DNA from: an uncultured Chloroflexia bacterium
GTDB taxonomy: Bacteria > Chloroflexota > Anaerolineae > JAAYZQ01
NCBI GenBank assembly: GCA_963700285.1
Contig: CAVOXA010000007.1
Location: forward strand, 32,001 to 96,000
Length of the DNA stretch: 64,000 nucleotides
Direction: 5' to 3'
How positions within the stretch are numbered: position 1 is the first letter of the stretch; every line of letters begins with the position of its first letter. Of the stretch, positions 25,992 to 44,979 are shown one piece after another. The notes beneath the pieces were generated by a model. It searched no databases and was not told where the DNA came from. It saw nothing but the letters and a program-made list of their open reading frames with translations. Made by a program: the position numbers and the translations under genes.

Positions 25992-27378
25992 TGTGCTAAT
26001 GTGAGTGAGACAACTCCTCTCAAGAGTTTAGGGTATAATGGAACGAGCAGAGGAGAGTGAGTGATGTCTCGAAACGGAGATGAGCGAACAGAGATGCCGG
26101 ATCCGGAAGTGGTGCCGATGGCCGAGCGACGGCGGTTCACGGCCGAGGAGAAGCTGCGCATCGTGGAGGAAGCCGACGCCTGCACTGAGCCGGGCGAGAT
26201 CGGTGCCTTGCTGCGGCGTGAGGGGATATACTCGCTCGTACCTGAGCCGGTGGCGCCAGGCCCGAGACCGGGGCCAGTTGACGGCGCTGGGTCCGCAGCA
26301 GCGAGGGCCGAAGCCGGCGACAGATGCGGCACTGGCCAGGGAAGTGGCCAGGCTGCAGCGGGAGAACGAGCGGCTGCAGACGCGCCTGGACCAGGCGGAA
26401 ACAATCATCGAGGTCCAAAAAAAACTCTCGCAGCTACTTGGGCTGAGTCCCGAGGAGAACGAGAGCAACGGGAAGTGATGATCGGCATGGCGGAAGAGCT
26501 GGGGGAAACGGTGGGCGTGTCGGAGGCTTGTCGCGCTTGGGAGTTCCGACGGAGCAGCCTGTACCGAGCTCGGAAGCCCAAGCCAGCCTCCTCGCCGCGA
26601 CCGACGCCGCCGCGGGCCTTGGGCGCGGCGGAGAAGGCGGAGGTGCGTGCCGTGCTCAACAGCGAGCGGTTCTGGGACTGCGCACCGCGAGAGGTGTATG
26701 CCACCTTGTTGGACGAAGGCGAGTATCTGTGCCATTGGCGAACGATGTATCGCATCCTGGAAGAGCACGACGAGGTGCACGAGCGACGGAATCAGCGTCG
26801 CCATCCAGTCTCTGTCAAGCCGGAACTGCGTGCAACAGGGCCAAATCAGCTTTGGAGCTGGGATATCACCCAATTGAGAGGGCCCAAAGGCGTCCACTAC
26901 TATCTCTACGTGATTCTGGATGTGTTCAGCCGCTTCGTTCCGGGCTGGATGATCGCCGAGCGGGAATTGGCCAGGCTGGCTGAGCAGCTGATCGCTGAGA
27001 CGTGCGCCAAGCAGGGGATCCCGAGGGATCAACTGGTGCTGCACTCCGACCGAGGGAGCGCGATGCGGTCGAAGACGGTGGCCCAGTTGCTGATCGACCT
27101 GGGGGTGGCCAAGAGCCACTCTCGGCCCTACACGCCGACAGATAACCCCTACTCGGAATCGCAGTTCAAGACGATGAAGTACCGACCCGAGTATCCCGAG
27201 CGATTCGACGGGCAGGAAGAAGCACGAGGTTGGGCACGGAGGTTCTTCCACTGGTACAATCACGAACACCATCACAGTGGCTTGGGGCTGATGACCCCGG
27301 CGGCGGTGCACTACGGCCTGGCAGAAATGGTCTACGAGCAACGTCGCCAAGTCCTGGCGGCAGCCTACGCGGCTCATC
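25992..27378 (+). mobile_element. IS3-family insertion sequence (orfA/orfB), right end missing
   Basis: TG-starting end tgtgctaatgtgagtgagaca; orfA RRRFTAEEKLRIV..(shift near 26235)..IIEVQKKL with A8 run 26417-26424; orfB DDE motifs WSWDIT, LHSDRG, NPYSESQFKT; transposase homology stops at YAAH. Confidence 0.9.
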
Positions 27379-27791
27379 TTCTGCTATTGCTTCGCTGTGA
27401 ACCCGACTCGTGCTGCCATTGCTGCGGACGGGATTGTAGGGTGCCTCTGGGATTGCGGCCTGGACCTGACTGCAGCTGTCCTTGCGTTCATAGCCTGTGC
27501 TCATCGTATGCCTCCATCCTTCAGGCTAGGAATGGAACTGGCCATCGCGGATCGAGAAAGCCAAAAGCCGCCGGCTCACCCGCCCAGGCAGGTTGGCGCG
27601 AACGGCTTGTTTCTAAGAGGGTATCCTGAAAGCAGACCGGTCGCGTCGGTCTGATCACTGGCTGGGTTGACCCTGCATCACTGGGCCCTTCTCATCTTTA
27701 ACCATTATAACCGCAAACTGGTTGGAAATCAAGGTTCCCTGTCTGCCGTCAGTGCCCGTGCCGAGTTCGAGGCCAGCCTGCAAGTCACCAC

Positions 27792-28583
27792 ATCGTGGCC
27801 AAGCGACTGCCAACACCCTTGCCAAGCAACTGCAACCATCGCCCAGAACGGTACTGCGAGGGGTCGTTCGTGGACACTGTGCACATGAACCATCCAGCAA
27901 TAACCTCGTTCCTACGGTCAGCCGCCGCGCCGATTCTGGCCAATGGGCGAACTGAATCGGCTTGCGCCCTTGACAGGCCGTCCATCCTCGTGAGTACTGC
28001 AGGTGGACGTACAGCGACAGGGAGTGCATGGGGCACTTTGTAATGGCCCAATGGGTGAGGCGGTGTCAAGGTGAGAGGTCATCGCCGAGGGACAATCCCC
28101 CAAGGAGATGGAAATCGTTCTTCTTGCGTTTGACGGAGCGTTCGGCACAGGAGCGGGCGTCTTTGTGGAGGTTCCAGAGGACGCTATTAGGATCGTGGCC
28201 AAGCGACTGCCAACACCCTTGCCAAGCAACTGCAGCATCGCCCAGAACGGCACTGCGAGGGGTCGTTCGTGGACACTGTGCACATGAACCATCCAGCAAT
28301 AACCTCGTTCCTACGGTCGGCCGCCGCGCCGATTCTGGCCAATGGGCGAACTGAATCGGCTTGCGCCCTTGACAGGCCGTCCATCCTCGTGATACTGCAG
28401 GTGGACGTACAGCGACAGGGAGTGCATGGGGCACTTTGTAATGGCCCAATGGGTGAGGCGGTGTCAAGGTGAGAGGTCATCGCCGAGGGACAATCCCCCA
28501 AGGAGATGGAAATCGTTCTTCTTGCGTTTGACGGAGCGTTCGGCACAGGAGCGGGCGTCTTTGTGGAGGTTCCAGAGGACGCT
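27792..28583. repeat. Near-identical ~394-bp tandem duplication of a transposase 3' end
   Basis: 27792-28185 and 28192-28583 differ by only a few substitutions and indels. Confidence 0.9.
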
Positions 28584-28910
28584 TCTCGGGGATGAGAGTA
28601 TGGAGGCGATAGTTCTCCTTGGGATAGGTGTAGAGGACGCGGCCGTAGGCAGAGTCAGAACAGTCCTTGGCGAAGTGAGGACAAGAGGTGATGTCCGGGG
28701 CTTTCTTGGCGGCGGCCAAGGGGCAGCGCCATTTGAGACGCAAGCGGTCGGGGCAGAAGCTCCAGCGCTTCATGGACAAGCCGGCCGGGCAGATGGGGAT
28801 ACCTTTTTCGAGCCGCAAGGGACCGGCATAGGGCAGGTTGGGCTTGTTGCGTTCGTTGAGGGGTACAACAAAGGCCATATGCCAGCGCTGAGTAGCCAGG
28901 CGAAAGAGCC
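28477..28910 (-). pseudogene. DDE transposase C-terminal fragment
   Basis: PICPAGLSM..LKWRCP..YGRVLYT..(frameshift) LWNLHKDARSCAERSVKRKK, typical of IS4/IS5-like transposase C-termini. Confidence 0.65.
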
Positions 28911-29009
28911 CCAGGGCATCGAGGTAGTGCGTTTGCCAGAAATCCCCTGATGGTCATTTCTGATCTAGGGCACGTATGTGCCACATCCCAATGGTGAGAG
29001 GTGGAAGTC

Positions 29010-30070
29010 ATGAAGAGAGCATCCCTGATTCTGGTACTAAGTCTGCTCATGGTCCTGGCAGCGGTGCCTGTCGCTGCCCAAGACGCCAGTCCGGTGTGTG
29101 AGAAGGTCCGGTCAGCGCAGGACAGGATGGAATGGAACAGCCAGCCCTGGGTGAGCCTGCTCGAAGTGCAAGGTCGTGAAGGGTGTTGGCTGGGCGATAT
29201 TGATCTACAAGGTGCCAACCTGGAAGGCGTCAAGCTGCGCGGGGCCCACCTGATCGACGCCGACCTGACCGACGCCGACCTGACCGGCGCCAACCTTAGC
29301 GGTGCCAACCTGACCCGCGCCGACCTGACCGGCGCCGACCTGACCGGCGCCGACCTGTCCTTCGCCAGGCTGTACGGGGCCATACTTGGCGGCGCCGACC
29401 TGACCAACGCCAATCTGACCTGGGCCAACCTGAGGCAGGCCGAGCTGATGTGGGCCAACCTAGAAGGCGCCAACCTGTCCCACGCCTATCTGCGCAACGC
29501 CGACCTGAGGTTTGCCAACCTGACCTACGCCGACCTGACCAGCGCTGACCTTGTTCTCACCCAACTGATGGTGGCCAACCTGAGCAACGCCGTCCTGACC
29601 GGCGCCAACCTGACCGGCGCCGACCTGAGGTCTGCCAACCTGACCAACGCCAACCTGGAGTACGCCGACCTGCTCGGCGCCGACCTGCATTACGCCATCC
29701 TGACCGGCGCCGACCTGTCCTTCGCCAGGCTGTACGGGGCCATACTGGCGGCGCCGACCTGACCAACGCCATCCTGACCGGCGCCAACCTGACCGGCGCC
29801 AACCTGGGGTACGCCGACCTGACCGGCGCCAACCTGACCGGCGCCAACCTGAGGTACGCCGACCTGACCGGCGCCAACCTGACCGGCGCCGACCTGCTCG
29901 GCGCCGACCTGCGCGGCGCCCACCTGACCAACGCCAACCTGACCAACGCCAACCTGGAGTGGGCCGACCTGCGCGGCGCCGACCTTGACAACGCTAACCT
30001 GACCGGCGCCCGACCCTGGACACGCCAACCTGAAGCCAGCGTTATCTGGAACAACACGATTGCCCTGACG
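29010..30070 (+). pseudogene. Secreted pentapeptide-repeat protein, paralogue of 18844..19899, frameshifted near 29747 and noisy at the 3' end
   Basis: N-terminus nearly identical to the paralogue; catactggcg vs the earlier repeat catacttggcg (missing T); remnant C-cap atctggaacaacacgattgccctgacg. Confidence 0.8.
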
Positions 30071-31554: not shown

Positions 31555-31625
31555 TTGCTGGGCTCGATGTCTCAGCGCAGTCGCATGTCGCGTGATCATC
31601 CTCAGCCGGTCTTTTTGTGCTTTTT

Positions 31626-31653
31626 GTCACAGCTTTGTAACAGCCCGGTCACA
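31626..31653 (+). promoter_or_regulatory. OmpR/PhoB-type triple direct repeat (PHO-box-like)
   Basis: GTCACA 31626, GTAACA 31637, GTCACA 31648; 11-bp period. Confidence 0.7.
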
Positions 31654-31931
31654 GTGCCTGTTATCTTTTGCCAGTAAGCTGTGGGTAAAGCGCGATAGTC
31701 AGCAGGGCTGACACGGATTCGCAATGCCTGTCGCAGCTAATGCGGGTGTGTGATCGGCTGCTGGGCTCTTGTCGAATCCCGTCGGGCAAGCATGACCGCA
31801 TGTTGCGCCTAGGACATAGAAGTCATCGCCGTCAAGATCGGAGAGCTGAGGGGATTGACGGCGGCTTATCCCGAGGCTGGGCTCATCGTGATAGAGGGTA
31901 GCCCGACTACGGCGTCGGAACGAGGGAAGAC

Positions 31932-32822
31932 ATGACAGCTCGAATTCTGGTTCCGCTGGATGGTTCGGCTCTAGCCGAGCAGGCGCTCTCCTGCGCTGTG
32001 ACGTTGAGTAGGAGCCTGCTGGCGGATCTCGTGCTGTTCCGCGCCGTATCGGTTTCATCTGATACTCAGGAACTTCTGGACAAAGCAGGGCTGGACTCTG
32101 ACGTGCTGATGAGGCACCTCGAAACCGAAGCCGATGAGTACTTGCAGGCGACTGCCCATTTGCTGCTGCAAAAAACCGGTGCGAGGGCCGACCACATCGT
32201 CCAGCGTGGTCTCGCGGCGGATGCCATCGTCGACTATGTCGACGAGAAAGACTTCCACCTGATCGTCATGGCCTCCCATGGATACAGCGGGCTGGAATTG
32301 TGGACACACGGCAGCGTGGCCGAGCGAGTCATGCAAGCGGCCAGCGTGCCGGTACTCCTCGTGCGCGCTCAAGCGACGGCCCCGCACGATCTGAAGCCCA
32401 AGCCGTGCCGCGGCATCCTGGTGCCGCTGGATGGTTCGGCCCTGGCTGAGCAGGCTCTGCCCCAGGCTACGACGGTTGCTCGGGCCTTGGGCTGCGAGAT
32501 GACCCTCTTTCATGTGTCAGTTGCCTTTCTCTTTGAGTTTGCCTCTCAGGCTGCGGATAGAATGGCCGTGGCTTACCTGAACAAGGTTGCCAACCGCCTC
32601 AGAGAGCAGGATATTCGGGTGTCTGTGGCCATAGGCACGGGTCTGGTGGCGGAATCCATCCTTTCCTATGCCAACACCCACTCCGTAGACCTGATCGCCC
32701 TATGCACGCACGGCCGGACGGGGCTGGTACGTTGGACTCTGGGCAGTGTAGCCGACCGAGTCTTTCGCGCCGGCACCATTCCGATCCTCATGGTGCGCGC
32801 CAAGAAAACTAGACACAAGTGA
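31932..32822 (+). CDS. Tandem-domain universal stress protein
   Basis: Two ILVPLDGSALAEQAL...GSVAxRV units. Confidence 0.92.
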   Translation: MTARILVPLDGSALAEQALSCAVTLSRSLLADLVLFRAVSVSSDTQELLDKAGLDSDVLMRHLETEADEYLQATAHLLLQKTGARADHIVQRGLAADAIVDYVDEKDFHLIVMASHGYSGLELWTHGSVAERVMQAASVPVLLVRAQATAPHDLKPKPCRGILVPLDGSALAEQALPQATTVARALGCEMTLFHVSVAFLFEFASQAADRMAVAYLNKVANRLREQDIRVSVAIGTGLVAESILSYANTHSVDLIALCTHGRTGLVRWTLGSVADRVFRAGTIPILMVRAKKTRHK

Positions 32823-32843
32823 GCCAGTTGTTGTGTGCCTTCT

Positions 32844-32871
32844 GTCACAAGGCTGATACAGATTCGTCACA
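32844..32871 (+). promoter_or_regulatory. OmpR/PhoB-type triple direct repeat (PHO-box-like)
   Basis: GTCACA 32844, GATACA 32855, GTCACA 32866; 11-bp period. Confidence 0.65.
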
Positions 32872-32960
32872 AGGTCTGTGATCACAGACGTCCAACGTGG
32901 AGATTGCGCGCCAGATGAACCTTTCATCGAGCGGCGCCTGACCATCCAGGGCGAACTAGG

Positions 32961-33935
32961 GTGGAATTACGGTGGAGCCTGAAGAATAGCATGAAACTGC
33001 AGACAAAGCTTCGCCTGGGCCTGATCGCCCTCCTTGCCCTGCTCGCTGCCCCAATAGCCGCCATTGGCTGCAATTATCTGGGTAAGAGGGCTTCGGGCGA
33101 GGTCGTCATCCTGTCCCTCGGAGTCATCCTGGGAAGCGCAGCAGGTGTCCTCCTGATCTCCCGTTCTGTACTGCAAGCGATGCAGTGCAGACAGCACGAC
33201 CTGGAGGCTCTAAACAACGAACTGTGGGCCACTAACCGCAACTACATGGAGATGCTGGGTTTCGTGGCCCATGAACTCAAGAACCCACTGGCCTCAGCCG
33301 TGATCAGCCTCTACACCGTCAAGGACGGCTACCTGGGAGAGATCACGCCCGGACAGAAGAAAAGCCTGGAGTCGGTAGCTCGCAACCTGGAAGATTTCCA
33401 GGACATGATCCGCAACTACCTGGACCTGTCCCGTCTGGAGAAAGGGGAACTTGCCGTAGCCAAGACCTACTTTCCCCTGCAAACCCGCGTGATCCGGCCG
33501 GTACTGGAAGAGCTGGAAGGCGAACTGCAAAGGCGGCAGATGAGGGTAGAGAATCACATTCCAGAGGGCAGGGTGGTGTATGCCGACGCCAGCCTGCTCA
33601 AGATCGTCTACTGTAATCTGTTGTCAAACGCTGTCAAGTATGGCCTGGAAGCGGGGACAATCCTGCTCGAGTCGCAAGACGGTGACAGCACCCTGATGTT
33701 CAGCGTGCGGAACGACAGTGCCGGTATTCCACAGGACCAGATCCCGCTGCTCTTCCGAAAGTTCAGCCGGTTGTTCAATCCCGAATACGAAGGCAAGCGG
33801 GGCACCGGCCTGGGCTTGTACATTTGCCGGGACATCGTGGAAAAGCATGGAGGCACGATTTGGGTAGATTCTCAGATGGGACAGTGGGTGCAATTCAGTT
33901 TCACCCTGCCAAAGCAGGACGAGGCACAAACGTGA
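32961..33935 (+). CDS. Membrane sensor histidine kinase
   Basis: Two TM helices; AHELKNPL H-box; NLLSNAVKY; GTGLGL; start may be 32991. Confidence 0.9.
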   Translation: MELRWSLKNSMKLQTKLRLGLIALLALLAAPIAAIGCNYLGKRASGEVVILSLGVILGSAAGVLLISRSVLQAMQCRQHDLEALNNELWATNRNYMEMLGFVAHELKNPLASAVISLYTVKDGYLGEITPGQKKSLESVARNLEDFQDMIRNYLDLSRLEKGELAVAKTYFPLQTRVIRPVLEELEGELQRRQMRVENHIPEGRVVYADASLLKIVYCNLLSNAVKYGLEAGTILLESQDGDSTLMFSVRNDSAGIPQDQIPLLFRKFSRLFNPEYEGKRGTGLGLYICRDIVEKHGGTIWVDSQMGQWVQFSFTLPKQDEAQT

Positions 33936-33948
33936 GAGAGGTGGATCG

Positions 33949-34743
33949 ATGAGCGAAAAGAGACAGATTCTGGTAATTGACGACGACGCCCAGTTGGTGG
34001 CTGGGGTCAAGACTCTGTTGGAAAGTGTCGGCTACCAGGTCTACTGCGCCTACCGGCCCAAAGATGGGTTGGCGCTGGCCAGGGAGACGCGGCCGGATCT
34101 GATCGTCATGGACATCCTGTTCGCGGGACCGCCGGGGCCAGACGGTGTGGCAGTCTCGCGGCAGCTTGCCCAGGACCCCGAGCTGAAAGATACGCCGGTG
34201 ATCATCCTGTCTGGGGTGAAGAAGGTGCTGGACATGCCGGTAAAGCTCGGCCCGGATGAGACCTACATGCCGGTGCAAGCGTTTGTGGAAAAGCCCTTCA
34301 AGCCAGAGGAGTTGCTGTCAAAGATCCAGCAAGTGCTGGCCCTTCGAGAATCGGTGAAGGAGGAAGGAAAGGGAAGAATCCTGGTTGTCGACGACGATCC
34401 GGACTTTCTGGCGATCACCACCCGCATTCTGACTGCCGCCGGCTACGAACCTGTGACCGCGGCCAACGGAGCGCAAGCTATGGCTGCCATGCGGCGGCGA
34501 AAGCCGGACCTGGTGTTGCTGGATATCATGATGAGCACCGTGCTGGATGGGCTGGGTGTCAGCGAGGACATGCAAGCCGATGAAGAACTGAAGGATCTAC
34601 CTGTCATCATGGTGTCCTCTATCGCGGAAACAGAGTATGCCGCGGTCTTTCCCACGGATGGCTATGTCCACATGGATGCCTGGATCTCGAAACCGGTCCG
34701 GCCCGATGAACTGCTGCAAAAGATCAGCAGATGTCTGGGATAG
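33949..34743 (+). CDS. Response regulator with two receiver domains and no output domain
   Basis: ILVIDDD..PDLIVMD..KPF and ILVVDDD..PDLVLLDIMM..KPV. Confidence 0.9.
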   Translation: MSEKRQILVIDDDAQLVAGVKTLLESVGYQVYCAYRPKDGLALARETRPDLIVMDILFAGPPGPDGVAVSRQLAQDPELKDTPVIILSGVKKVLDMPVKLGPDETYMPVQAFVEKPFKPEELLSKIQQVLALRESVKEEGKGRILVVDDDPDFLAITTRILTAAGYEPVTAANGAQAMAAMRRRKPDLVLLDIMMSTVLDGLGVSEDMQADEELKDLPVIMVSSIAETEYAAVFPTDGYVHMDAWISKPVRPDELLQKISRCLG

Positions 34744-34791
34744 TTGTGGGCCAGAGGGAAACATATTCACTGCGGCTGGGAGGCGATGACG

Positions 34792-35367
34792 ATGAACCAT
34801 GACCGAGTTGATCTGACCGGGCCGGCACTCGAGCGCGACTTTGTGGCTACGCTGAGCCCGGCAGGGGAGACCCTACGTACATGCATGCAGTGTGGCTCGT
34901 GCACGGCCACCTGCGCCAGCGCCTACGCCATGGACTATACGCCCAGACAGATCTGGCACATGGCCCGGCTGGGCATGAAAGACGAGGTGCTCAACAGCAA
35001 GACGTTGTGGCTGTGCAGCACCTGCTACTCCTGTACGCTGCGCTGTCCCCGCGATCTGCCTCTGACCGAGACCATCGGCACTCTGAAGCGAATGGCGGAG
35101 CGGGAGGGCATCCGGGGCTATAAGGAGAGCCGCTACTTCTACCGGGCCTTCATGGAAACGGTGCGGCGCTACGGGCGCACCAACGAAGTGGAGATCATGG
35201 TCCGCTACTTTCTGACCACGAACCCGTTTCTGGCCGTCGAGTACGTGCCATTGGCGCTGGCCATGCTCCGTCACAGCAAGGTGCCCCTCAGCCTGCCCAA
35301 GGTCGCCGGCCCGGGCAAGCTGGACCGGCTGTTCGCCCGGGTCGAGGAATTGGAGGGTGAGCGATGA
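34792..35367 (+). CDS. hdrC: Heterodisulfide reductase subunit C
   Basis: CMQCGSCTATC and LWLCSTCYSCTLRCPR; precedes hdrB. Confidence 0.9.
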   Translation: MNHDRVDLTGPALERDFVATLSPAGETLRTCMQCGSCTATCASAYAMDYTPRQIWHMARLGMKDEVLNSKTLWLCSTCYSCTLRCPRDLPLTETIGTLKRMAEREGIRGYKESRYFYRAFMETVRRYGRTNEVEIMVRYFLTTNPFLAVEYVPLALAMLRHSKVPLSLPKVAGPGKLDRLFARVEELEGER

Positions 35368-36224
35368 AGGAATACGCCTACTTTCCCGGCTGCTCCCTGG
35401 AGAGCACGGCCAAGGAGTATGACCTCTCCGCCCGGCTGGTGATGCGCGAGCTGGGAGTGGAGCTGTTAGAACTTGAGGATTGGAACTGCTGTGGAGCCAG
35501 CGCCGCCGAGATCAGGAGCCACCTGCTCGCCTTGGTGCTGCCTGCTCGCAACCTGGCTCTGGCCGAACAGATGAACGGCAACGGTCAGCTTGTAGCCAGT
35601 TGCAGCGCCTGCTATGTCAATTTGCGCAAGGTGGAGGAGACGGCCAGGGCGAACGCAGCCATGCTGGGCACCATCAACCAGGCGCTGGAGGTGGATGGTC
35701 TGACCTACGCCGGCAGGATGCATGTGCGTCACCTGCTGGACGTCATCGCCAACGATGTAGGCCCGGAGGCCATCGCCGCGCGGGTGAGGAGGCCGCTGCA
35801 GGGACTGCGCGCGGCGCCCTACTATGGCTGCCAGACGGTCCGTCCCTACAGCCCCTTCGACGTCCCCTATTTCCCCGAGACGATGGACAGGGTGCTGGCC
35901 GCCATGGGCGTGCAGGTTCACCCCAACCCCCTGAAAGCGGCTTGCTGTGGGGGCACCCTATCGACCACCAAACGCGAGGTAGGGCTCAAGCTGGTGAGTG
36001 ACCTGTTCCGCGCCGTGGAAGGGGCGGACTGTATTGTCACCGTCTGTCCCCTGTGCCAGATGAACCTGGAGTCGTACCAGGGGCAGGTGTCGAAACAGCT
36101 CGACCAGCCGCTAAACATGCCGGTCGTGTACCTGACCCAGCTCTTGGGGCTGGCCTTTGGCTTGCCGGAGCAGGAGTTGGGGCTAAAGCACAACATCGTG
36201 CCCCTCAAGCTGACGGAGGTTTGA
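35364..36224 (+). CDS. hdrB: Heterodisulfide reductase subunit B
   Basis: YFPGCSL, DWNCCG, CSAC, PYYGCQ, CCGG, CPLCQMNL (two CCG domains). Confidence 0.93.
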   Translation: MKEYAYFPGCSLESTAKEYDLSARLVMRELGVELLELEDWNCCGASAAEIRSHLLALVLPARNLALAEQMNGNGQLVASCSACYVNLRKVEETARANAAMLGTINQALEVDGLTYAGRMHVRHLLDVIANDVGPEAIAARVRRPLQGLRAAPYYGCQTVRPYSPFDVPYFPETMDRVLAAMGVQVHPNPLKAACCGGTLSTTKREVGLKLVSDLFRAVEGADCIVTVCPLCQMNLESYQGQVSKQLDQPLNMPVVYLTQLLGLAFGLPEQELGLKHNIVPLKLTEV

Positions 36225-36226
36225 GC

Positions 36227-37072
36227 ATGGATGACATCAAGATCGGAGTCTACATCTGCCAGTGTGGAGTGAATATCGCCAGCGTGGTGGACGTGGCCGA
36301 CGTGGCCCGCTTTGCCAGTGGGTTGCCCCACGTGGCGGTTGCCCGAGACAGCAAATACACCTGTGCCGAGCCAGGACAAAAGATGATCAGACAGGACATC
36401 CAGGAGTTGGGCATCAACCGCGTGGTCGTGGCCTCGTGCACACCGCGGATGCACGAACTCACGTTTCAGGGTGTGCTGGAGGAAGCGGGTCTGAACCCCT
36501 ACTTCTTTGAGATGGCCAACATTCGCGAGCACGTTGCCTGGATCAGCAAGGACACAGCCAAGGCCACGGCCAAGGCCAAGCGCCTGGTCAGTGCCGCAGT
36601 GGCCCGCGTGGCTCTGCAGCAGCCGCTCCAGGCCCGGCGCGTGCCGGTCGCCGACAAAACGCTGGTGGTCGGGGGCGGCATTGCCGGCATTCAGGCCGCG
36701 CTGACCATCGCCAACGCTGGCTACCACGTCTACTTGGTGGAGCGAGAGCCGGCCATCGGCGGCTACATGGCCCAACTGGACAAAACCTTCCCCACCCTGG
36801 ACTGTGCCACCTGAATTCTGGGCCCCAAGATGATGGATGCCGGTCGGCATCCCAACATTGAGCTCTTGACCTGGAGTGAGGTGGAGGAGGTTTCCGGCTA
36901 CGTGGGCAATTTCAAGGTGCGGGTCCGCAAGAAGGCCCGCTACGTGGACGAGAGCAAGTGCACCGGCTGCGGCGTGTGCTGGACCGAGTGCCTGACGCGG
37001 CGCATCCCGCAGTTCAAGCAGATTGAGAAAGGTGCGTTGCGCTTTGGGGAGAGGAGGCCAGGCGAGCGATGA
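36227..37072 (+). CDS. hdrA: HdrA N-terminal half, probable selenoprotein (in-frame TGA 36812-36814)
   Basis: IGVYICQCG, VVASCTPR, MANIREH, VVGGGIAG, QLDKTFPTLDCAT*ILGPKM; frame continues to GNFKVRVRKKARYVD..CTGCGVC; SECIS-like hairpin downstream of the TGA. Confidence 0.9.
36835..36852 (+). promoter_or_regulatory. Bacterial SECIS-like hairpin
   Basis: ggatgcc-ggtc-ggcatcc, G-containing apical loop starting 28 nt after the UGA. Confidence 0.75.
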
Positions 37073-37548
37073 ACGCGCAGCGTGTGGACGAGATCATCGA
37101 CAACTATGAGGCCGACCGGACCTGTACCCTGGCCATCCTGCAGGACGTGCAAGCTGAATACAAGTACCTGCCCCGCGAGGCTATCATCCAGACGGCCAAC
37201 CGGCTGGGCGTCACGCTGGGCGAGGTCTACCAGATGGCGACCTTCTTCCGGGCCTTTAGCCTGGAGCCCAAGGGCGACTATACCATCAGGGTGTGCATGG
37301 GCACAGCTTGCCACGTACGCGGCGCGGTCCAGATCCTGGAGCAGTTCGAGCGCGATCTGGGCATCAGGGCTGGCGAGACGTCACGCGACCGCAGGTTCTC
37401 TCTGGAAGTGGTCATGTGCTTGGGCGCCTGCGCCCTCGGCCCGGTGGTGGTCGTCAACGAGGAAACGCACGGCGAGATGTCGCCCGACAAGGCGCACGCG
37501 CTCGTGGCCGAGTTGACGGATGGGGGCGACGGGAGGGAAGGGTCATGA
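37069..37548 (+). CDS. NuoE/HydC-like [2Fe-2S] subunit
   Basis: [33 protein letters not shown]. Confidence 0.92.
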
Positions 37549-39326
37549 GCGAAACAAGGACCATAACTGTCTGTCAGGGGACCGGTTGCGAGTCGCACCG
37601 CTCCGGGCAGCTGCGGATGATGCTGGAGGCGGAGGTGGCCCGGTTGGATCTGCCGTGCCAGGTTAAACGTACTGGCTGTCATGGCTTGTGCGAGCGTGGC
37701 CCCATCGTCACGGTGGAGCCAGATGGCATCCTCTACCTCAAAGTGCAGCCCAAGGATGTGCCCGACATCGCCAAGTCGCTGGAGAACGGCGACCTGGTGA
37801 AACGGCTGCTGTACCGCGACCCGGTGACCAAAAAGCCGGTGCCCTACTACAAGGACGTGGACTTTTACAGCAAGCAGACGCGGCTGGTGCTGCGCCACAA
37901 CGGGCATATCGACCCTGAGTCGATCGATGATTATGTGGCTGTGGGCGGCTACCAGGCGCTGCGCAAGGCCCTGCAGGAGATGACGCCACAGCAGGTCGTC
38001 GCCGAGGTCAGGGATTCCGGCCTCAGGGGGCGGGGCGGGGCCGGGTTCGTCACCGGACTGAAGTGGGAGTTCACCCGCAAGGCCCCCGGCGAGATCAAGT
38101 ACATCATCGCCAACGGCGACGAGGGCGACCCCGGCGCTTTCATGGATCGCAGCATCATGGAGGGAAACCCCCACAGTGTCATCGAGGGGATGCTCATCGG
38201 CGCCTACGCGGTGGGTGCTCAGGAAGGTTATATCTATGTCCGCAACGAGTACCCGATGGCTGTCCAACGCCTGCGCCTGGCCATCGAGAAGGCGCAGGAG
38301 CGTGGCCTTCTGGGCGAAAACATCCTGGGCTCTGGTTTTGCCTTTTCCGTCAAAATCGTGCGCGGGGCAGGGGCCTTTGTCTGCGGCGAGTCGAGCGCGC
38401 TGATGGCCTCGGTGGAAGGCCGCGTCGGCGAGCCGCGCCCCAAGCACGTCCACGCCACCCACAAGGGCCTGTGGGACCAGCCCACGGCGTTGAACAACGT
38501 CGAGACCTGGGCCAACGTGCCGGCGATCATTGACCGCGGCTCCGACTGGTACGCGAGCTATGGCACCGCCCGCAGCAAGGGCACCAAGGTCTTTTCGCTG
38601 GTGGGTAAGATCAAAAACACCGGCCTCATCGAGGTGCCGATGGGCACGCCGCTGCGCGAGATCATCTATGACGTCGGCGGCGGCCTCCTCAAGGATCGGG
38701 CGTTCAAAGCGGTGCAAACCGGCGGGCCATCGGGCGGCTGCCTTCCGGCCGGCCTGCTGGATCTGCCGGTGGACTTTGAGCGGTTGGCCGACGCCGGTTC
38801 GATGATGGGTTCCGGCGGCATGATCGTCATGGACGAGCGCAATTGCATGGTCGATGTGGCCCGGTACTTTGTGGATTTTCTCAAGGAGGAGTCGTGCGGC
38901 AAGTGCACGGCCTGCCGCGAGGGCATCAAACAGATGCTCGAGATCCTGACCGCCATCACCAAGGGTGAGGGACAGGAAGGGGACGTCGAGCTGTTGGAGG
39001 AGTTGGGTGCGGTCGTGCAGCAGACCTCGCTGTGCGGACTGGGCAAGTCGGCGCCCAACCCGGTCCTGTCTACCATCCGCTACTTCCGGGATGAGTACGA
39101 TGCCCACATTCGCGAGCAGCGGTGCCCGGCCGGTGTCTGCCGGGCGCTGATCACCTTTGCCATCGACCCTGACCTGTGCAAGGGCTGCACGATCTGCGCC
39201 CAGAAGTGCCCGCAGGAAGCGATCTCCGGCGAGCTAAAGCAGATCCACGTTATCGACGATGCCAAGTGCATCCGCTGTGGAGTCTGCCGCGAAGTCTGCC
39301 CGTCGGATGCGGTGCTGGTGCACTGA
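37545..39326 (+). CDS. NuoF/HydB-like FMN/NADH-binding subunit with N-terminal [2Fe-2S] and C-terminal 2x[4Fe-4S]
   Basis: CQGTGC..GCHGLC; [10 protein letters not shown]; [13 protein letters not shown]; [12 protein letters not shown]; [12 protein letters not shown]; two CxxCxxCxxxCP. Confidence 0.93.
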
Positions 39327-39341
39327 TGCGGAGGAAAGAAC

Positions 39342-41138
39342 ATGATCAACTTGACGATAGACGGCCAACCTTTCAAAGCTGACGAAGGGCAGACTATCCT
39401 GGAGGTCGCCCGGCGGGCAGGCGTCAAGATCCCGACGCTGTGCTACCATCCCGCCCTGGAGCCCTATGGCGCCTGCCGCCTGTGCACGGTCGAGATCCGC
39501 TGGGGCCGGCGCTCATCGTTGGAAACGGCCTGTACCTATCCCGTGCGCGAGGGGATTGAGGTGCTGACCAAGTCCGAGGCCGTACGGGCGACAAGGCGCA
39601 TGATCCTGGAGCTGATGCTAGCCCGCTGTCCCAATGTGCCGGTGATCCAGGACCTGGCCCGCGAGTATGGCATCGAGAAATCCCGCTTCAAGACCGAGGA
39701 CCCGGACGAGGACTGCATCCTGTGCGGCCTGTGCGTGCGGGTCTGCAACGAGCTGGTGGGTGCAGGGGCCATCAACTTTTCGGAGCGAGGCATCAGCCGC
39801 GTCATTGGCCCGCCATTCCTGGAGACGAGCGACGCCTGCATCGGCTGTGGGGCGTGCGCCCTGGTCTGTCCGACCGGCGCAATCCGCATCCTGGACGAGG
39901 CGGCAGCCATCTACGAGGCGCTGCCGCTGGGGCCAACCTCGGCCATCCACGTGCCATCGCTGCAGGCGGTACCACGGGTGCCGGTCATCGACACCGATGC
40001 CTGCATCCACTTCCGCACGAGGGATCTGGGTATGGTCGATGGCTGTGGGGTGTGCCAGACGCTCTGCGAGGTGGAGGCCATCAATTTTGACGTGGAAGAC
40101 GAGTTCCTGGATCTGGAGGTGGGCGCCATCATTCTGGCCACCGGCTTTGCTAACTTTGATCCCGGCAAACTCGACCAGTATGCCTACGGTCGCTCGCCCA
40201 ATGTCATCAGCGGCATCGAGTTTGAGCGGATGTCCAACTCGGCCGGGCCGACGGGCGGCGAGATCCTGACCGCCGACGGCAAGCGGCCGGAGCGGGTGGC
40301 CATCATCCACTGCGTGGGCAGCCGCGACAAGGCCGGCGCGGCCGCCGGAAACAGCAACGAGTACTGCTCGCGTGTATGCTGTATGTACGCCTTGAAACAG
40401 GCCCACCTGGTGCGTGACAAGACCGACGCCGAGGTATTCGAGTTCTACATGGACATGCGTACTTTTGGCAAGGGCTACGAAGAGTTCTACGAGCGCATCC
40501 AGGAGGAGGGCGTGATCTTTGTTCGAGGCCGGGGCACGGAGGTCATGGTCGAGAAGGATGGCCGGCTGACCGTCAAAGCCGAGGACACCAACCTGGGGCA
40601 GCCTGTATCGGCCACTGTGGACATGGTCATCCTGGGTGCGGGCATCGTACCCCAGGCCGATACCGCCGACGTGGCCCAGACCTTTGGCATCAGCCGCAGC
40701 CCCGATGGCTTTTTCATGGAGGCCCACCCCAAGCTGCGGCCCTTCCACACCAACACCGATGGTGTGTTCCTGGCCGGTGCTTGTCAGGCCCCGCGCGATA
40801 TACCCGACACGGTGGCTCACGCCAATGCCGCGGCCGCGGAGGCCCTGGCCCTGATGTCCGCTGGCGAGGTGACCATTGCCCCGACGACCGCCTGGGTCGA
40901 CGAGAACCTATGCTCAGGCTGCAAGACCTGCCTGGATCTGTGTCCCTACAAGGCCATTTCGTACATCTCTCGAAACGGTACCGGCGTGGCCGAGGTGAAT
41001 GAGGCACTGTGCAAGGGCTGTGGCACCTGTGCCGCTGCCTGCCCGGCTGGGGCTATCACTGCCCAGCACTTTACGGGTGCCCAGATCCTGGCCCAGATCG
41101 AGGGGCTGTTCCGGGTAGGACAAGGAGTGACGATATGA
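39342..41138 (+). CDS. Fusion: HydA/NuoG-like N-terminal Fe-S module + HdrA C-terminal half
   Basis: IPTLCYH..GACRLC..TAC; CILCGLCVRVC; CIGCGACALVCP; then QAVP, VGAIILATG, IHCVGSRD, YCSRVCCMY, EAHPKLRP, GACQAPRDI and C-terminal ferredoxin. Confidence 0.92.
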   Translation: MINLTIDGQPFKADEGQTILEVARRAGVKIPTLCYHPALEPYGACRLCTVEIRWGRRSSLETACTYPVREGIEVLTKSEAVRATRRMILELMLARCPNVPVIQDLAREYGIEKSRFKTEDPDEDCILCGLCVRVCNELVGAGAINFSERGISRVIGPPFLETSDACIGCGACALVCPTGAIRILDEAAAIYEALPLGPTSAIHVPSLQAVPRVPVIDTDACIHFRTRDLGMVDGCGVCQTLCEVEAINFDVEDEFLDLEVGAIILATGFANFDPGKLDQYAYGRSPNVISGIEFERMSNSAGPTGGEILTADGKRPERVAIIHCVGSRDKAGAAAGNSNEYCSRVCCMYALKQAHLVRDKTDAEVFEFYMDMRTFGKGYEEFYERIQEEGVIFVRGRGTEVMVEKDGRLTVKAEDTNLGQPVSATVDMVILGAGIVPQADTADVAQTFGISRSPDGFFMEAHPKLRPFHTNTDGVFLAGACQAPRDIPDTVAHANAAAAEALALMSAGEVTIAPTTAWVDENLCSGCKTCLDLCPYKAISYISRNGTGVAEVNEALCKGCGTCAAACPAGAITAQHFTGAQILAQIEGLFRVGQGVTI

Positions 41139-41575
41139 TCGACAACGGCTTCGAACCAAGAATCGTCGGGTTCCTATGCAACTGGTGCACGTACGCGGCC
41201 TCCGATGGGGCGGGCGTAGCCCGCATGCAGCAGCCGCTGAACGTGGACATTATCCGGGTGATGTGCTCTGGCCGGATCGAGCCCGCTTTTATCCTGAAGG
41301 CCTTTGCCGAGGGGGCCGACGGCGTCATCGTCTCGGGCTGCCATCCGCCGGGCGACTGTCACTACACCGACGGCAACTACAAGACCTTCCGCCGCATGCC
41401 GCTGGTCGAGGCGTTGCTGGCGCAGTCTGGCATCGAGCCCGGCCGCTTTCACTGGGGCTGGATCTCGGGGGCGGAGGCGCCCAAGTGGGCCGGGCTGGTG
41501 CGTGATTTCACCGCGCAGGTGCGCGCCTTGGGGCCGCTGAATTGGCAGCACGAGCTGGCGAGCAAGGAGGACTAG
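41135..41575 (+). CDS. mvhD: MvhD/FlpD [2Fe-2S] subunit
   Basis: GFLCNWCTY, RVMCSGR, GCHPPGDCHY, WISGAE. Confidence 0.93.
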   Translation: MIDNGFEPRIVGFLCNWCTYAASDGAGVARMQQPLNVDIIRVMCSGRIEPAFILKAFAEGADGVIVSGCHPPGDCHYTDGNYKTFRRMPLVEALLAQSGIEPGRFHWGWISGAEAPKWAGLVRDFTAQVRALGPLNWQHELASKED

Positions 41576-41577
41576 CC

Positions 41578-42552
41578 ATGACCACCAACGGAAAGCTGAA
41601 GCTGGGTCTCTACTGGGCAGCCTCGTGTGGCGGTTGCGACATCGCCATCGTCGAGCTCCGGGAAAAGATCCTGGATCTGGACGCAGCGGCCGATATCCTG
41701 TTCTGGCCGTGCGCCATGGATTTCAAATACAAGGACGTCAGGGCCATGGTCGAGGGGCAGATGGACGTCTGCCTGTTCAATGGCTCCATCCGCAGCACCG
41801 AGAACGAAGAGATGGCACACCTGCTCCGGGAGAAAGCCAAGGTTTTGGTCGCCTTTGGCTCCTGCGCCCACGAGGGTTGCATTCCCGGGCTGGCCAATCT
41901 CTTTGACCGGCAGTCGATCTTGGCGCGAGTCTACCTGGAGACACCCTCGACCGAGAACCCGCAGGGCATTTTGCCGCAGACGAGCTACCGGATGCCCGAG
42001 GGCGAGGTGCACATCCCCAAGTTGTTTACTACGGTCAAGACGCTGGACCAGGTGACAGAGGTGGATTACTATGTGCCCGGCTGCCCACCGCAAGCGCCGC
42101 AGATCTGGGCCGTACTCGAGGCGATCCTGGGGGGCAACCTGCCGCCCAAGGGCAGCGTGGTGGGCGCCACTGAAAAGACGGTTTGCGACGAGTGCAAACA
42201 CGTCCGCGAGGAGAAGCGCATCACCCGCTTCTACCGGCCCCACGAGATCATTCCCGACCCGGAGCGCTGCTTGCTTGACCAGGGCATCATCTGCGCCGGG
42301 CCGGCAACGCGGGGCGGCTGCGGGGCGCTCTGTCCCACGGTAAACATGCCCTGCCGGGGTTGCTACGGCCCGCCGCCAAACATCGTTGACCAGGGCGCGG
42401 CATTGCTCTCGGCTGTGTCTTCGGTGGTGGCCGCCGACACGGAGGAGGAAGCAGCCCGCATCGTGGGGCAGATTGTGGACCCGGTGGGGACGTTTTACCG
42501 CTTTGGGCTGCCGGCATCGCTGCTCCACCGTGCAAAGCTTGTGGATTCGTAG
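41578..42552 (+). CDS. mvhG: [NiFe]-hydrogenase small subunit (group 3c, MvhG-like)
   Basis: WAASCGGCD, FGSCA, PGCPP, GPATRGGCGALCP..PCRGCYG. Confidence 0.92.
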   Translation: MTTNGKLKLGLYWAASCGGCDIAIVELREKILDLDAAADILFWPCAMDFKYKDVRAMVEGQMDVCLFNGSIRSTENEEMAHLLREKAKVLVAFGSCAHEGCIPGLANLFDRQSILARVYLETPSTENPQGILPQTSYRMPEGEVHIPKLFTTVKTLDQVTEVDYYVPGCPPQAPQIWAVLEAILGGNLPPKGSVVGATEKTVCDECKHVREEKRITRFYRPHEIIPDPERCLLDQGIICAGPATRGGCGALCPTVNMPCRGCYGPPPNIVDQGAALLSAVSSVVAADTEEEAARIVGQIVDPVGTFYRFGLPASLLHRAKLVDS

Positions 42553-42613
42553 ATCTGGAGAACCGGCTGGATGAATCTCGGATCACGAATCTACCTACCC
42601 GCAGGAGGATACT

Positions 42614-44086
42614 ATGCAAAAGATTAGCATTGACCCGATCACCCGCCTGGAGGGGCACGGCAAGATCGACATCTTTCTCGACGAGGAAGGCAACGTGGCC
42701 AACGCCTACCTGATCATCCCCGAGCTTCGCGGCTTTGAGAAATTCGCCGAGGGCCGGCCAGTAGAAGAGATGCCGCGTATCACACCGCGCATCTGTGGCG
42801 TCTGCCCCGAGGCGCACCACATGGCCTCGGCCAAGGCTTGCGACGCCGTCTACCACGTCGAGGTGCCGCCGGCGGGCAAAAAGCTGCGCGAGCTGCTTTA
42901 CTCGGCCTTCTACGTGGCCGACCACACCGTCCACTTTTACATCTTGGCCGCGCCCGATTTTGTGCTGGGGCCAGACGCCCCACCTGCCGAGCGCAACATC
43001 CTGGGCTTGATCCACAAGGTCGGCGTGGACGTCGGCAAGCAGGTTATCGAGAGCCGCGGAAAGGCCATGGACATCATCGGTCTGTTGGGCGGCAAGACTA
43101 TCCATCCTGTGGGCGCGCTGCCCGGCGGGGTGAGCAAATCGATCAACGAGGAGGAGCGGGCCGGGATCGAGAGCTGGGGCCACGATTTGGTGGGCTTTGG
43201 ACTGTTCAGCCTCCAACTCTTCAGGGATGTGGTGCTGGGCAACAAGGCCTATCTGGACCTGATCCTGTCCGACGCTTACACGACGCCGATGTATTATATG
43301 GGTCTGGTGGACGGGGACAACAAGGTCAACTTTTACGATGGGAAGGTGCGCGTCGTGGACCCTGAGGGCAAAGAACTGGTCAAGTATGGCCCAGAGGAGT
43401 ACCTGGAGGTCGTCGCCGAGCACGTCGAGCCTTGGACCTATCTCAAGTTCCCCTACCTCAAGCAGGTAGGCTGGAAGGGGTTTGTCACCGGCAAGGACAG
43501 CGGGGTCTACCAGGCGACGCCCCTGTCGCGGCTCAATGCCGCCGATGGCATGGCCACGCCCGAAGCCCAGGCGGCCTACGAAGAGTTCTACACGACGATG
43601 GGCGGCAAGCCGGTCCACGGCACGCTGGCCACCCACTGGGCGCGCCTCATCGAGCTGCTCTACGCCGCCGAGCGCCTGGTCGAACTGGCCACCGATCCTG
43701 GCATCACCGACCCGCACGTGCGCAACATCCCCACCGCCATACCGACCGAGGGCGTGGGCATCGTCGAAGCGCCGCGCGGCACGCTGACGCACCACTTTGT
43801 CACCGACGAGCGGGGCATTGTCCAGAAATGCAACCTCATTGTCGGCACGACCAACAACTATGCGCCCATCTCCATCTCGATCAAGAAAGCGGCCGAGGCC
43901 TTTATCCACAAGGGCCAGGTCCTGACCGAGGGCATGCTGAACCGGGTGGAGATGGCCTTCCGCGCCTACGACCCCTGTTTCGGTTGCGCCACCCACACGC
44001 TGCCGGGCCAGATGCCGCTGGAGGTGCGGGTGTGCGACGCGGAGGGGTGCGTGGTCGAGGTGCTATGTCAGCATCTGGGCAAGTAG
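42614..44086 (+). CDS. mvhA: [NiFe]-hydrogenase large subunit (group 3c, MvhA-like)
   Basis: [16 protein letters not shown] (L1), [17 protein letters not shown] (L2) plus C-terminal extension. Confidence 0.94.
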
Positions 44087-44143
44087 GGTGACGGGGGATT
44101 GGGAGATCCAGATCTCCCGATCCCCCAGATAGGTGAGTTCCCC

Positions 44144-44674
44144 ATGAAGAAGCTGGTCCTCGGCCTGGGAAATCCAATCCTGACGGATGACGGCGCCGGC
44201 ATCCACGTGGTGCGGGCTGCGGCCGCCCGCTGCGCGCCGGCGGACGGCGCGACCTTTGCCGAGGCGAGCCTGGGTGGCCTGCGGCTCCTGGATTTGCTGG
44301 CCGGCTACGACCGGGCCATCGTGGTGGATGCAATCCAGACGCGCGGCGGGCAGCCAGGCGCCCTCTACCGGCTGGGCCCCGGCGACCTGCGAGCCTCCCT
44401 GCACTCCGGCTCCAGCCACGACCTGTCGCTGCCGGCCGCCCTGGACCTGGGCCGGCGGCTGGGCATGGCGCTGCCCGGCGAGGAAAACCTGATCCTCCTT
44501 GCCATTGAGGTCGAGGATGTGCTGACCTTTGGCGAGACCTGTACCCCCGCCGTGACGGGGGCCATCCCCCAGGCTGTGGAGGCGGTACTGGCGGAACTGG
44601 CGGTTCAGCCGTGGGCCGCTGAGGTGCGGCCGGACTGGCAATGTTTCCCGCGGGCAGGGCATAACTCGACATAA
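44144..44674 (+). CDS. Hydrogenase maturation protease
   Basis: VLGLGNPILTDDGAG, VVDA, SSHD. Confidence 0.92.
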   Translation: MKKLVLGLGNPILTDDGAGIHVVRAAAARCAPADGATFAEASLGGLRLLDLLAGYDRAIVVDAIQTRGGQPGALYRLGPGDLRASLHSGSSHDLSLPAALDLGRRLGMALPGEENLILLAIEVEDVLTFGETCTPAVTGAIPQAVEAVLAELAVQPWAAEVRPDWQCFPRAGHNST

Positions 44675-44979
44675 AGTATTCTTCGCCCTAACCTCTGCGT
44701 TCTTTGTGTCCCTCTTCGATGACTGCCCACAAGTCTCTCCCGGCCAGGGGAATGGGGCAGCACGCTCAGCTTGTCCGCTGGGCGGTATGATGGTATACTG
44801 CTCCCGGCCGCAAGATGGTTGGAGTCTATTGACGTCGTAAGGGCGGGGCATTCCCAGCGTCCGTTTGCCATGCAGAAGCGCCTCCGCTGTGCATGGACCC
44901 CTGGGGTAACCAAGAGACCTCGTGGAATGCCTCACCGCTGCTTTGGCGAAGTGCCAGGACGAAAGGAGTACACGACCCC

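What the first reader, a model, noticed from the sequence alone, without database searches (positions are those of the whole stretch)
36227..37072. Hidden selenoprotein: in-frame UGA in HdrA(N) with SECIS-like hairpin
Seen: the two ORF-track pieces (ending 36814 and starting 36830) are one frame reading DKTFPTLDCAT-TGA-ILGPKM. The hairpin ggatgcc-GGTC-ggcatcc has its loop 28 nt after the UGA. Established: HdrA has the motif TLDCxxCIL, this Cys is Sec in some HdrA, and bacterial SECIS elements lie just 3' of the UGA with an apical G. Inference: Sec is inserted here, and automated annotation would wrongly split the gene. MvhD and MvhA in this operon are Cys forms.
Basis: partly seen in the sequence, partly recalled or inferred. 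Interest (0 to 1): 0.8.

Follow-up and report, generated by a model that had tools for sequence, protein, structure and literature searches.

The report
Selenocysteine HdrA split around Bfu module
The apparent stop codon in this hdrA gene is very likely read as selenocysteine, a known trait of HdrA proteins, and the gene is separately cut in two around an NADH/ferredoxin-type (Bfu) module, which is predicted to join two electron-bifurcating machines in one enzyme.

Summary
Observation confirmed. TGA at 36812-36814 is in frame at the Cys197 position of solved HdrA structures. All 80 best genome homologs carry TGA there. The hairpin codons are almost free of synonymous change (0.985 major-codon share against 0.67 elsewhere), with one compensatory pair; it is in 16 of 18 TGA and 0 of 9 Cys paralogs. 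It meets the four bacterial SECIS criteria. The genome has tRNA-Sec and intact selA; selB and selD are present but frameshifted in this assembly, probably through insertion errors (not checked in reads). Sec-HdrA is known in bacteria since 2006, so this part is ordinary.

Less ordinary: even with Sec the protein ends at 281 aa. hdrA is naturally split inside its inserted ferredoxin domain around bfuC-bfuB-bfuA (NuoEFG/HydCBA-like), with BfuA fused to the C-half. This holds in 38 of 80 homolog loci and in Cys-form metagenome loci. Bifurcation residues of both modules are kept. The partner after mvhD varies (hydrogenase, formate dehydrogenase, Flx-like). I found no paper describing it. This scan noted both the Sec-HdrA and the split architecture before, on other genomes.

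The parts
36227..37072 (+). hdrA N-half, 281 aa with Sec196: N-terminal Fe-S domain, first half of the FAD domain (GGGIAG at 149), CxxU at 193-196, one ferredoxin motif (C245-C255), then a true stop
   Evidence: (HdrA2 model E 6e-112 over 5-258)
36812..36814 (+). in-frame UGA, inferred selenocysteine codon, aligned with Cys197 of 5ODC chain A
36835..36852 (+). SECIS-like hairpin in the coding region: 7-bp stem, 4-nt loop starting GG, 27 nt after the UGA
34786..35367 (+). hdrC-like gene (start codon uncertain)
35364..36224 (+). hdrB-like gene (CCG domains)
37069..37548 (+). bfuC / NuoE / HydC-like [2Fe-2S] subunit; its start overlaps the hdrA-N stop
37545..39326 (+). bfuB / NuoF / HydB-like FMN subunit, 593 aa, with B2 ligands C434, T472, H521, C527, C532 and two C-terminal [4Fe-4S] motifs
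39342..41138 (+). fusion of a short BfuA/NuoG-like domain (one [2Fe-2S] and two [4Fe-4S] motifs, no His-ligated motif) to the hdrA C-half (second inserted-ferredoxin motif, E295 and K352, C-terminal ferredoxin)
41135..41575 (+). mvhD, Cys form
41578..42552 (+). mvhG-like hydrogenase small subunit
42614..44086 (+). mvhA-like [NiFe] large subunit, Cys form
44144..44674 (+). hydrogenase maturation protease
32961..34743 (+). histidine kinase and double-receiver response regulator directly upstream; similar genes lie in 8 and 7 of the 27 split loci with enough upstream DNA

Best explanation
The in-frame UGA at 36812 is very likely decoded as selenocysteine with the help of the hairpin 27 nt downstream, giving a 281-aa selenoprotein that is the N-half of an HdrA whose gene is split around a Bfu (HydCBA/NuoEFG-like) module and that is predicted to reassemble with its C-half into one Hdr-Bfu-Mvh complex. 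Shown: codon, frame, hairpin conservation, sel genes, gene order, fusion, cofactor motifs. Inferred (about 0.93): SelB-tRNA-Sec binds the GG loop and inserts Sec at the Cys197 position, making a CxxU pair that by analogy either ligates the partner's N-terminal cluster or forms a selenylsulfide relay. Inferred (about 0.9): the two halves rebuild the FAD domain and the inserted 2x[4Fe-4S] ferredoxin, each chain giving one motif. Inferred (about 0.5): H2 enters through MvhAG-MvhD, the HdrA FAD bifurcates, the high-potential electrons go to HdrCB and an unknown disulfide, and the low-potential electrons leave through the inserted ferredoxin straight into BfuA and on to BfuBC, which reduces NAD+ and ferredoxin.
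For: TGA in 80 of 80 best homologs. The five codons between the UGA and the next ATG keep their amino acids (I 80, L 79, G 80, P 80, K 80 of 80) while varying at wobble positions, so they are translated. The six hairpin codons have a mean major-codon share of 0.985 against 0.67 for 81 other conserved codons (maximum 0.96); 75 of 80 hairpins are identical, 3 have a compensatory C-G to U-A change and 2 have one mismatch (on 19 chosen loci: 100% of cells paired, slid controls 15-57%). In an independent set from 20 relatives plus this genome, the hairpin is in 16 of 18 TGA, 0 of 9 TGC and 0 of 3 Ala-codon loci. All four criteria of the bacterial SECIS model are met (PMC13188914 passages). tRNA-Sec scores 67.5 bits against a cut-off of 47; selA is intact; selB and selD score over their cut-offs. 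Six further in-frame TGA sites sit in redox proteins of the same genome (second HdrA, MvhD, NiFe large subunit, SelD, two Fdh-like), and both Fdh-like sites have a GGUCU loop. Split form: 38 of 80 loci end at 281 aa, all 38 with nuoE directly after; BfuA and HdrA-C are one ORF in 27 of 28; the E356/K409 equivalents are kept in 28 of 28; the four Cys/His B2 ligands are kept in 32 of 32. Natural HdrA-N/NuoE fusions occur in 3 of 78 metagenome loci. The gene after mvhD is a hydrogenase in 6, FdhA in 8, an Flx-like set in 3 and undetermined in 1 of 18 loci, like the exchangeable inputs of methanogen Hdr (PMC13518236 passages).
Against: selB carries two single-base indels and selD eight extra bases at six places in this assembly. 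The flanks of selD are much cleaner than the gene (0 frame switches in 4.1 kb upstream and 2 in 9.5 kb downstream, against 4 in 1 kb), so real loss is not excluded by local context. The fifth B2 position is Thr or Cys in only 22 of 32 loci. Two TGA paralogs lack this hairpin (L109, L126), as do the 2 TGA loci among the 78 metagenome loci. Only one stem pair covaries, and related sequences are not independent. The hydrogenase follows in only 6 of 18 loci, so H2 is not the general donor. No structure, binding, direction or substrate was tested.
Confidence: 0.88

Rival explanations
1. Same Sec protein and same complex, but electrons run the other way or Bfu does not bifurcate: NADH (with or without reduced ferredoxin) enters through Bfu as the donor, as proposed for HdrL/type III HdrA, and the MvhD side releases H2 or formate.
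For: Type III HdrA has an NAD(P)H-binding GltD domain inserted at the same ferredoxin domain and is proposed to use NADH as donor (PMC12054007 passages). BamGHI acts as a confurcating input to the HdrA-like BamE (bioRxiv 10.64898/2026.04.10.717634 passages). Direction cannot be read from sequence.
Against: MvhD is followed by the usual donor modules (hydrogenase, FdhA, Flx-like), and an Flx-like NAD(P)H site next to Bfu would be redundant if Bfu were only an NADH inlet. B2-B5 motifs are present, unlike non-bifurcating homologs.
Confidence: 0.3
2. The codon is an ancestral Sec codon, but this strain has recently lost a working Sec pathway (selB and selD truly broken), so translation stops at residue 195 and the operon is dead.
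For: Frameshifts in both selB and selD; selD breaks are denser than in its flanks; no selD was found in the same-genus genome G001, about 90% complete.
Against: The 19.5 kb around selB show 48 isolated 1-nt indels against G001, across unrelated genes, and 237 such indels lie in 216 kb compared; 52 of 213 G001 ORFs (real and spurious) map to more than one frame. selD has 8 inserted and 0 deleted bases, no extra stop, and fewer lineage-unique amino-acid changes (10) than two intact relatives (34, 21), a pattern of insertion-type sequencing error and not of decay. G001 lacks the whole selD stretch with its neighbours. selB is present in 16 of 20 relatives.
Confidence: 0.05
3. The TGA is a real stop or a sequencing error; the gene is a pseudogene, or two genes with re-initiation at ATG 36830.
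For: A code-11 gene call gives two ORFs; the assembly has many indel errors elsewhere.
Against: 80 of 80 homologs have TGA; the intervening codons are conserved as amino acids; no Shine-Dalgarno-like sequence precedes 36830; the operon itself is error-poor.
Confidence: 0.02
4. UGA is read through as another residue (Trp or Gly by a changed genetic code, or Cys on a special tRNA).
For: Cys is the residue in all 110 of the 120 listed database homologs that continue past the site.
Against: TGA is the true stop of hdrB (36222-36224) and of hdrA-N itself (37070-37072). The only tRNA with a UCA anticodon among 49 found is the Sec type. No SepCysS over the cut-off.
Confidence: 0.02

Closest known systems
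Sec-containing HdrA of bacteria and archaea (16 bacterial members in Zhang et al. 2006, PMC1794560; hdrA1/A2 and hdrL1/L3 of Desulfobacterium autotrophicum, PMC2702500; Sec197 of Methanococcus maripaludis HdrA, PMC13518236; passages read)
   Same: Same family and, against the methanogen structures, the same position (second Cys of DCxxC, residue 197); UGA with a coding-region SECIS; gene callers truncate it (also stated for archaea in PMC12054007).
   Different: Here in a likely Anaerolineae genome (79 of 80 best hits are titled as Chloroflexota lineages), and in an N-terminal half protein. Zhang 2006 mentions 'hdrA_N-unknown-hdrA_C' in Deltaproteobacteria, with one gene of unknown function between the halves.
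MvhAGD-HdrABC of methanogens (PDB 5ODC, 8RVU)
   Same: hdrC, hdrB, hdrA, mvhD, mvhG and mvhA are all present; the E356/K409 and Cys197 positions are kept.
   Different: HdrA is on two chains, and a three-gene Bfu module sits in the inserted ferredoxin domain. The HdrB substrate is unknown. All Hdr and Mvh NCBIfam scores are below the curated cut-offs.
Bfu family (HydABC-like; Schut et al. 2022, PMC9304861), closest structures 9MQX and 7T2R
   Same: BfuC, BfuB with B1-B5 motifs, and a short BfuA without the His-ligated cluster.
   Different: BfuA is fused to half of HdrA. No Hdr-Bfu class appears in the parts I read (section 4 part 1 of 2, section 5 part 1 of 3, passages) or in the one supplement held as text (0 hits for 'Hdr').
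Class II benzoyl-CoA reductase BamB-I (bioRxiv 10.64898/2026.04.10.717634, passages)
   Same: One complex holding both a Bfu module and an HdrA-type bifurcating module.
   Different: In Bam, BamGHI feeds HdrA-like BamE through the C-terminal ferredoxin/MvhD-like side and the genes are separate. Here Bfu is fused at the inserted ferredoxin, the MvhD side has its own partner, and no tungsten reductase is in the operon.
HdrL / type III HdrA (PMC2702500, PMC12054007, passages)
   Same: An NAD(P)H-linked unit inserted at the inserted-ferredoxin position of HdrA; some members contain Sec.
   Different: The insert is a GltD domain within one chain, not a three-gene FMN/Fe-S Bfu module that cuts the gene.

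Membership tests
Bacterial selenoprotein gene | In-frame UGA aligned with a conserved Cys of homologs | tested here: met
   (Cys in 110 of 120 listed homologs; the other 10 end at the site)
Bacterial selenoprotein gene | bSECIS model: loop 3-9 nt, upper stem 4-16 bp, G in the first two loop positions, 16-37 nt from UGA, MFE at most -7.5 kcal/mol | tested here: met
   loop 4, stem 7, GG, 27 nt, -13.4 kcal/mol (criteria from PMC13188914). bSECISearch itself was not run.
Bacterial selenoprotein gene | Hairpin tied to the UGA form | tested here: met
   16 of 18 TGA against 0 of 9 TGC loci; synonymous constraint
Bacterial selenoprotein gene | selA and selC in the genome | tested here: met
Bacterial selenoprotein gene | Intact selB and selD | tested here: inconclusive
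   present but frameshifted in the assembly; the pattern favours sequencing error
Bacterial selenoprotein gene | Selenium in the protein | not testable with these tools
   needs mass spectrometry or 75Se
Type I (single-chain, about 650 aa) HdrA | All five domains on one polypeptide | tested here: not met
   split into 281-aa and 598-aa chains
Bifurcating HdrA module | K409 and E356 equivalents at the FAD | tested here: met
   E295 and K352 of the fusion; kept in 28 of 28 loci
Bifurcating HdrA module | Bifurcation activity and heterodisulfide substrate | not testable with these tools
   no biochemistry
Bfu family | BfuB with FMN domain, SLBB, B1, C-terminal B3/B4 and N-terminal B5; BfuC present | tested here: met
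   (the N-terminal [2Fe-2S] Pfam hit is below the gathering score, but the Cys residues align with 7T2R_B)
Bfu family | B2 ligands (C438, C/T476, H525, C531, C536 in 7T2R numbering) | tested here: met
   C434, T472, H521, C527, C532 in the window; four of the five kept in 32 of 32 loci, the fifth Thr/Cys in 22
Bfu family | Coupled NAD+ and ferredoxin reduction | not testable with these tools
   no biochemistry
Bam (BCRII) complex | Tungsten BamBC genes and fused-dimer BamE in the cluster | tested here: not met
   no such gene between 34786 and 44674; the rest of the genome was not searched

The most novel reading that the evidence does not exclude
A widespread, undescribed enzyme class in which a bfuCBA operon inserted into hdrA hard-wires a Bfu bifurcating module onto the low-potential ferredoxin exit of a (seleno)HdrA, so two unrelated electron-bifurcation machines run in series, with an interchangeable H2, formate or NAD(P)H input docked at MvhD.
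Probability: 0.45. Interest if true: 0.7.

Novelty: new variant of a known kind. Interest (0 to 1): 0.45.

Why it matters
For the Sec codon: a correct annotation fix. The nearest database proteins are truncated at 195-197 aa, so HdrA selenoproteins of Anaerolineae are under-counted and the operon can be misread as broken. The near-invariant 18-nt hairpin is a ready marker for them, and natural Sec and Cys versions of the same architecture offer a test of what Sec197 does, which PMC13518236 calls unresolved. For the architecture: the only coupling of Bfu and HdrA bifurcation I found in print is BCRII, wired differently. A soluble Hdr-Bfu-Mvh/Fdh complex would be a second design for chaining bifurcation steps and would bear on how sediment and digester Anaerolineae balance H2, formate, NADH and ferredoxin.

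Tried and rejected
Rfam scan of 36600-37100: 0 matches at E up to 10; this says nothing against a bacterial SECIS. Shuffle z-scores and a loose genome-wide hairpin screen: not discriminating. Sequencing runs: 20 listed, none with half the words, no RNA holder listed. Laying four runs on selB gave only contigs of relatives (about 90% alike or less in the listed pieces); one contig lacked a base at the first break, which is too weak to count. No read-level check of the TGA or of selD was obtained. Comparison of selD with the same-genus genome failed because the stretch was not found there. Global UGA reassignment and SepCysS rejected. A phylum-wide sample found the BfuA-HdrA-C fusion in only 2 of 300 other genomes at E 1e-90, so it is patchy and not typical of the phylum. 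No structure or complex prediction was run. Literature searches that did not turn up the split Hdr-Bfu arrangement: (0 papers); passages of PMC5736913, PMC7325909, PMC5947623, PMC5424206 and bioRxiv 10.1101/2024.09.26.615249 held nothing on it. Appel et al. 2021 (review of HdrA modules) was seen only as a citation and could describe it; bioRxiv supplements were not available.

Full report
Observation. The stretch 36227-37072 (+) is one frame of 281 codons with a single internal stop, TGA at 36812-36814, in ...DKTFPTLDCAT*ILGPKMMDAGRHP.... A 7-bp hairpin with a 4-nt loop lies at 36835-36852, 27 nt after the UGA. On its own it is unremarkable: z-scores of -0.5 to -1.9, and 458 loose look-alikes genome-wide. 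Read through, the protein matches HdrA models over residues 5-258, and residue 196 aligns with the second Cys of DCxxC, residue 197 of 5ODC. Cys197 ligates the N-terminal cluster of the partner HdrA (PMC9012536 passages); in M. maripaludis it is Sec197 in a Cys-Sec pair proposed as a relay (PMC13518236 passages).

Is the UGA real and translated? The five codons between it and the next ATG keep their amino acids in 79-80 of 80 while wobble positions vary, so they are translated. The six hairpin codons are nearly frozen: mean major-codon share 0.985, against 0.67 for 81 other conserved codons; 75 hairpins are identical, 3 compensatory and 2 mismatched. One of the six search seeds overlapped this peptide, but seeds are codon-degenerate, and a separate search of 20 relatives plus this genome gave the same picture: of the 30 loci fetched (of 50 matches), the hairpin is in 16 of 18 TGA, 0 of 9 TGC and 0 of 3 Ala-codon loci. 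On 19 chosen loci all stem cells pair, with one covarying pair. The four criteria of the bacterial SECIS model are met (PMC13188914 passages). The 10 closest database proteins among the 120 listed stop exactly at the site.

Sec machinery. tRNA-Sec and an intact selA are present. selB and selD score over their cut-offs but are frameshifted in this assembly. For selB this is a local error patch: 48 isolated single-base indels in 19.5 kb against the same-genus genome G001, whose selB is one 640-aa ORF. For selD the flanks are clean, which counts against me; but the gene has 8 inserted and no deleted bases, no extra stop, and fewer unique amino-acid changes than two intact relatives (10 against 34 and 21), which fits insertion errors better than decay. 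I have no read-level proof. Six other in-frame TGA sites occur in redox proteins of this genome. UGA is also an ordinary stop in the operon, and there is no SepCysS.

What is known. Sec-HdrA is an established bacterial selenoprotein family (16 members in PMC1794560, passages; four Sec HdrA/HdrL proteins in PMC2702500, passages). The finding as given is therefore right but ordinary. An earlier report of this scan said the same for another Anaerolineae genome (e1-3395267).

The surroundings. Even with Sec the protein ends after the first motif of the inserted ferredoxin domain. The order is hdrC, hdrB, hdrA-N, bfuC (NuoE-like), bfuB (593 aa), bfuA fused to hdrA-C, mvhD, mvhG, mvhA, protease. BfuB is closest to bifurcating Bfu structures (9MQX_B, 7T2R_B) and has the B2 ligands named in PMC9304861. 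The C-half keeps the Glu and Lys that mark bifurcating HdrA (PMC12054007 passages). The fusion carries the BfuA pair of [4Fe-4S] motifs and then the second inserted-ferredoxin motif, so I infer that the HdrA ferredoxin is rebuilt from two chains with BfuA attached. The split is conserved: 38 of 80 loci, nuoE directly after in 38 of 38, fusion in 27 of 28, E/K in 28 of 28, four B2 ligands in 32 of 32. At least 120 fusion proteins cover the whole junction at 63-92% identity (best 120 of 1520 listed). With a Cys-form query, 16 of 78 metagenome loci have nuoE starting within 600 nt of the codon (3 as HdrA-N/NuoE fusions; 3 more loci have it further off), all Cys forms, at 33-69% GC. Sources name similar short HdrA-N proteins from KSB1, Aminicenantes and Bacteroidota, but their gene context was not checked. 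The arrangement is patchy: 2 of 300 other genomes of the phylum, 2 of 20 relatives, and the 13-kb block is absent at the matching place in G001. After mvhD come a hydrogenase (6), FdhA (8; four confirmed by HMM, four by sequence likeness), an Flx-like set (3; two confirmed; the name Flx is recalled) or an undetermined gene (1), in 18 loci with enough DNA.

Mechanism. Shown: codon, hairpin constraint, gene order, motifs. Inferred: Sec insertion (0.93); reassembly of the halves (0.9); donor entry at MvhD, bifurcation at the HdrA FAD, high-potential exit to HdrCB and low-potential exit into BfuA-BfuBC for NAD+ and ferredoxin reduction (0.5; the reverse or a non-bifurcating Bfu 0.3). The HdrB substrate is unknown.

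Novelty. The nearest published cases are BCRII (Bfu plus HdrA, wired through the MvhD side; bioRxiv passages), HdrL/type III HdrA (GltD inserted at the same place) and a brief 'hdrA_N-unknown-hdrA_C' in PMC1794560. Seven searches and the parts of PMC9304861 that I read showed no Hdr-Bfu of this form; Appel et al. 2021 was not read. This scan reported the same architecture from another genome (e1-3399781); I had noted it before that look-up, and it is not independent evidence. Verdict: a real Sec codon of a known family, inside a new variant of Hdr architecture; interest 0.45.

Noticed in passing
G000:C9:235892-237560 (loci L240, L241): [NiFe] hydrogenase large subunit with an in-frame TGA in the N-terminal motif (RICGV*T, CxxU) and frameshifts further on. 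PMC13582414 (passages) calls N-terminal CxxU an exception outside group 4; the group of this enzyme was not determined.
   Followed up: partly
L153:10956-12419 and L154:202-1665 (G045, G057): In these two genomes the same split operon has Cys HdrA-N but an MvhA-like subunit with TGA in the N-terminal motif (RICGV*P), the reverse of the window.
   Followed up: no
G000 assembly, e.g. C10:2118000-2138000 and C10:1797000-1816000: Patches with many single-base indels against G001 (48 in 19.5 kb; 45 in 18 kb), so 'pseudogenes' called in this assembly need care.
   Followed up: yes
G000:C10:849616-850305, C22:53846-54229, C1:68252, C1:1379605: Other likely selenoproteins: a second HdrA with the compensatory form of the same hairpin, an MvhD-like protein, and two FdhA-like proteins with GGUCU loops.
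   Followed up: partly
window 31600-44940: The block from the Usp gene through the protease (about 13 kb) is missing between the flanking DUF1847 and metallo-beta-lactamase-fold genes in same-genus G001: a gained or lost island.
   Followed up: partly
window 26061-28950: An rve-integrase transposase followed by a near-exact direct duplication of about 400 bp at 27792-28583; IS debris or an assembly artefact.
   Followed up: no
window 29001-30028: Pentapeptide-repeat gene whose 15-nt repeats continue past the ORF end at 29762, probably frameshifted.
   Followed up: no
L228: Short Cys HdrA-N followed by a BfuA-like/HdrA-C match with no nuoE or nuoF hit in between: a possible reduced version of the split.
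   Followed up: no
P0124: A 281-aa database protein 94% identical to the TGA locus L025 with C at residue 196: either a recent Sec-to-Cys change or an annotated Sec shown as C; not resolved.
   Followed up: no
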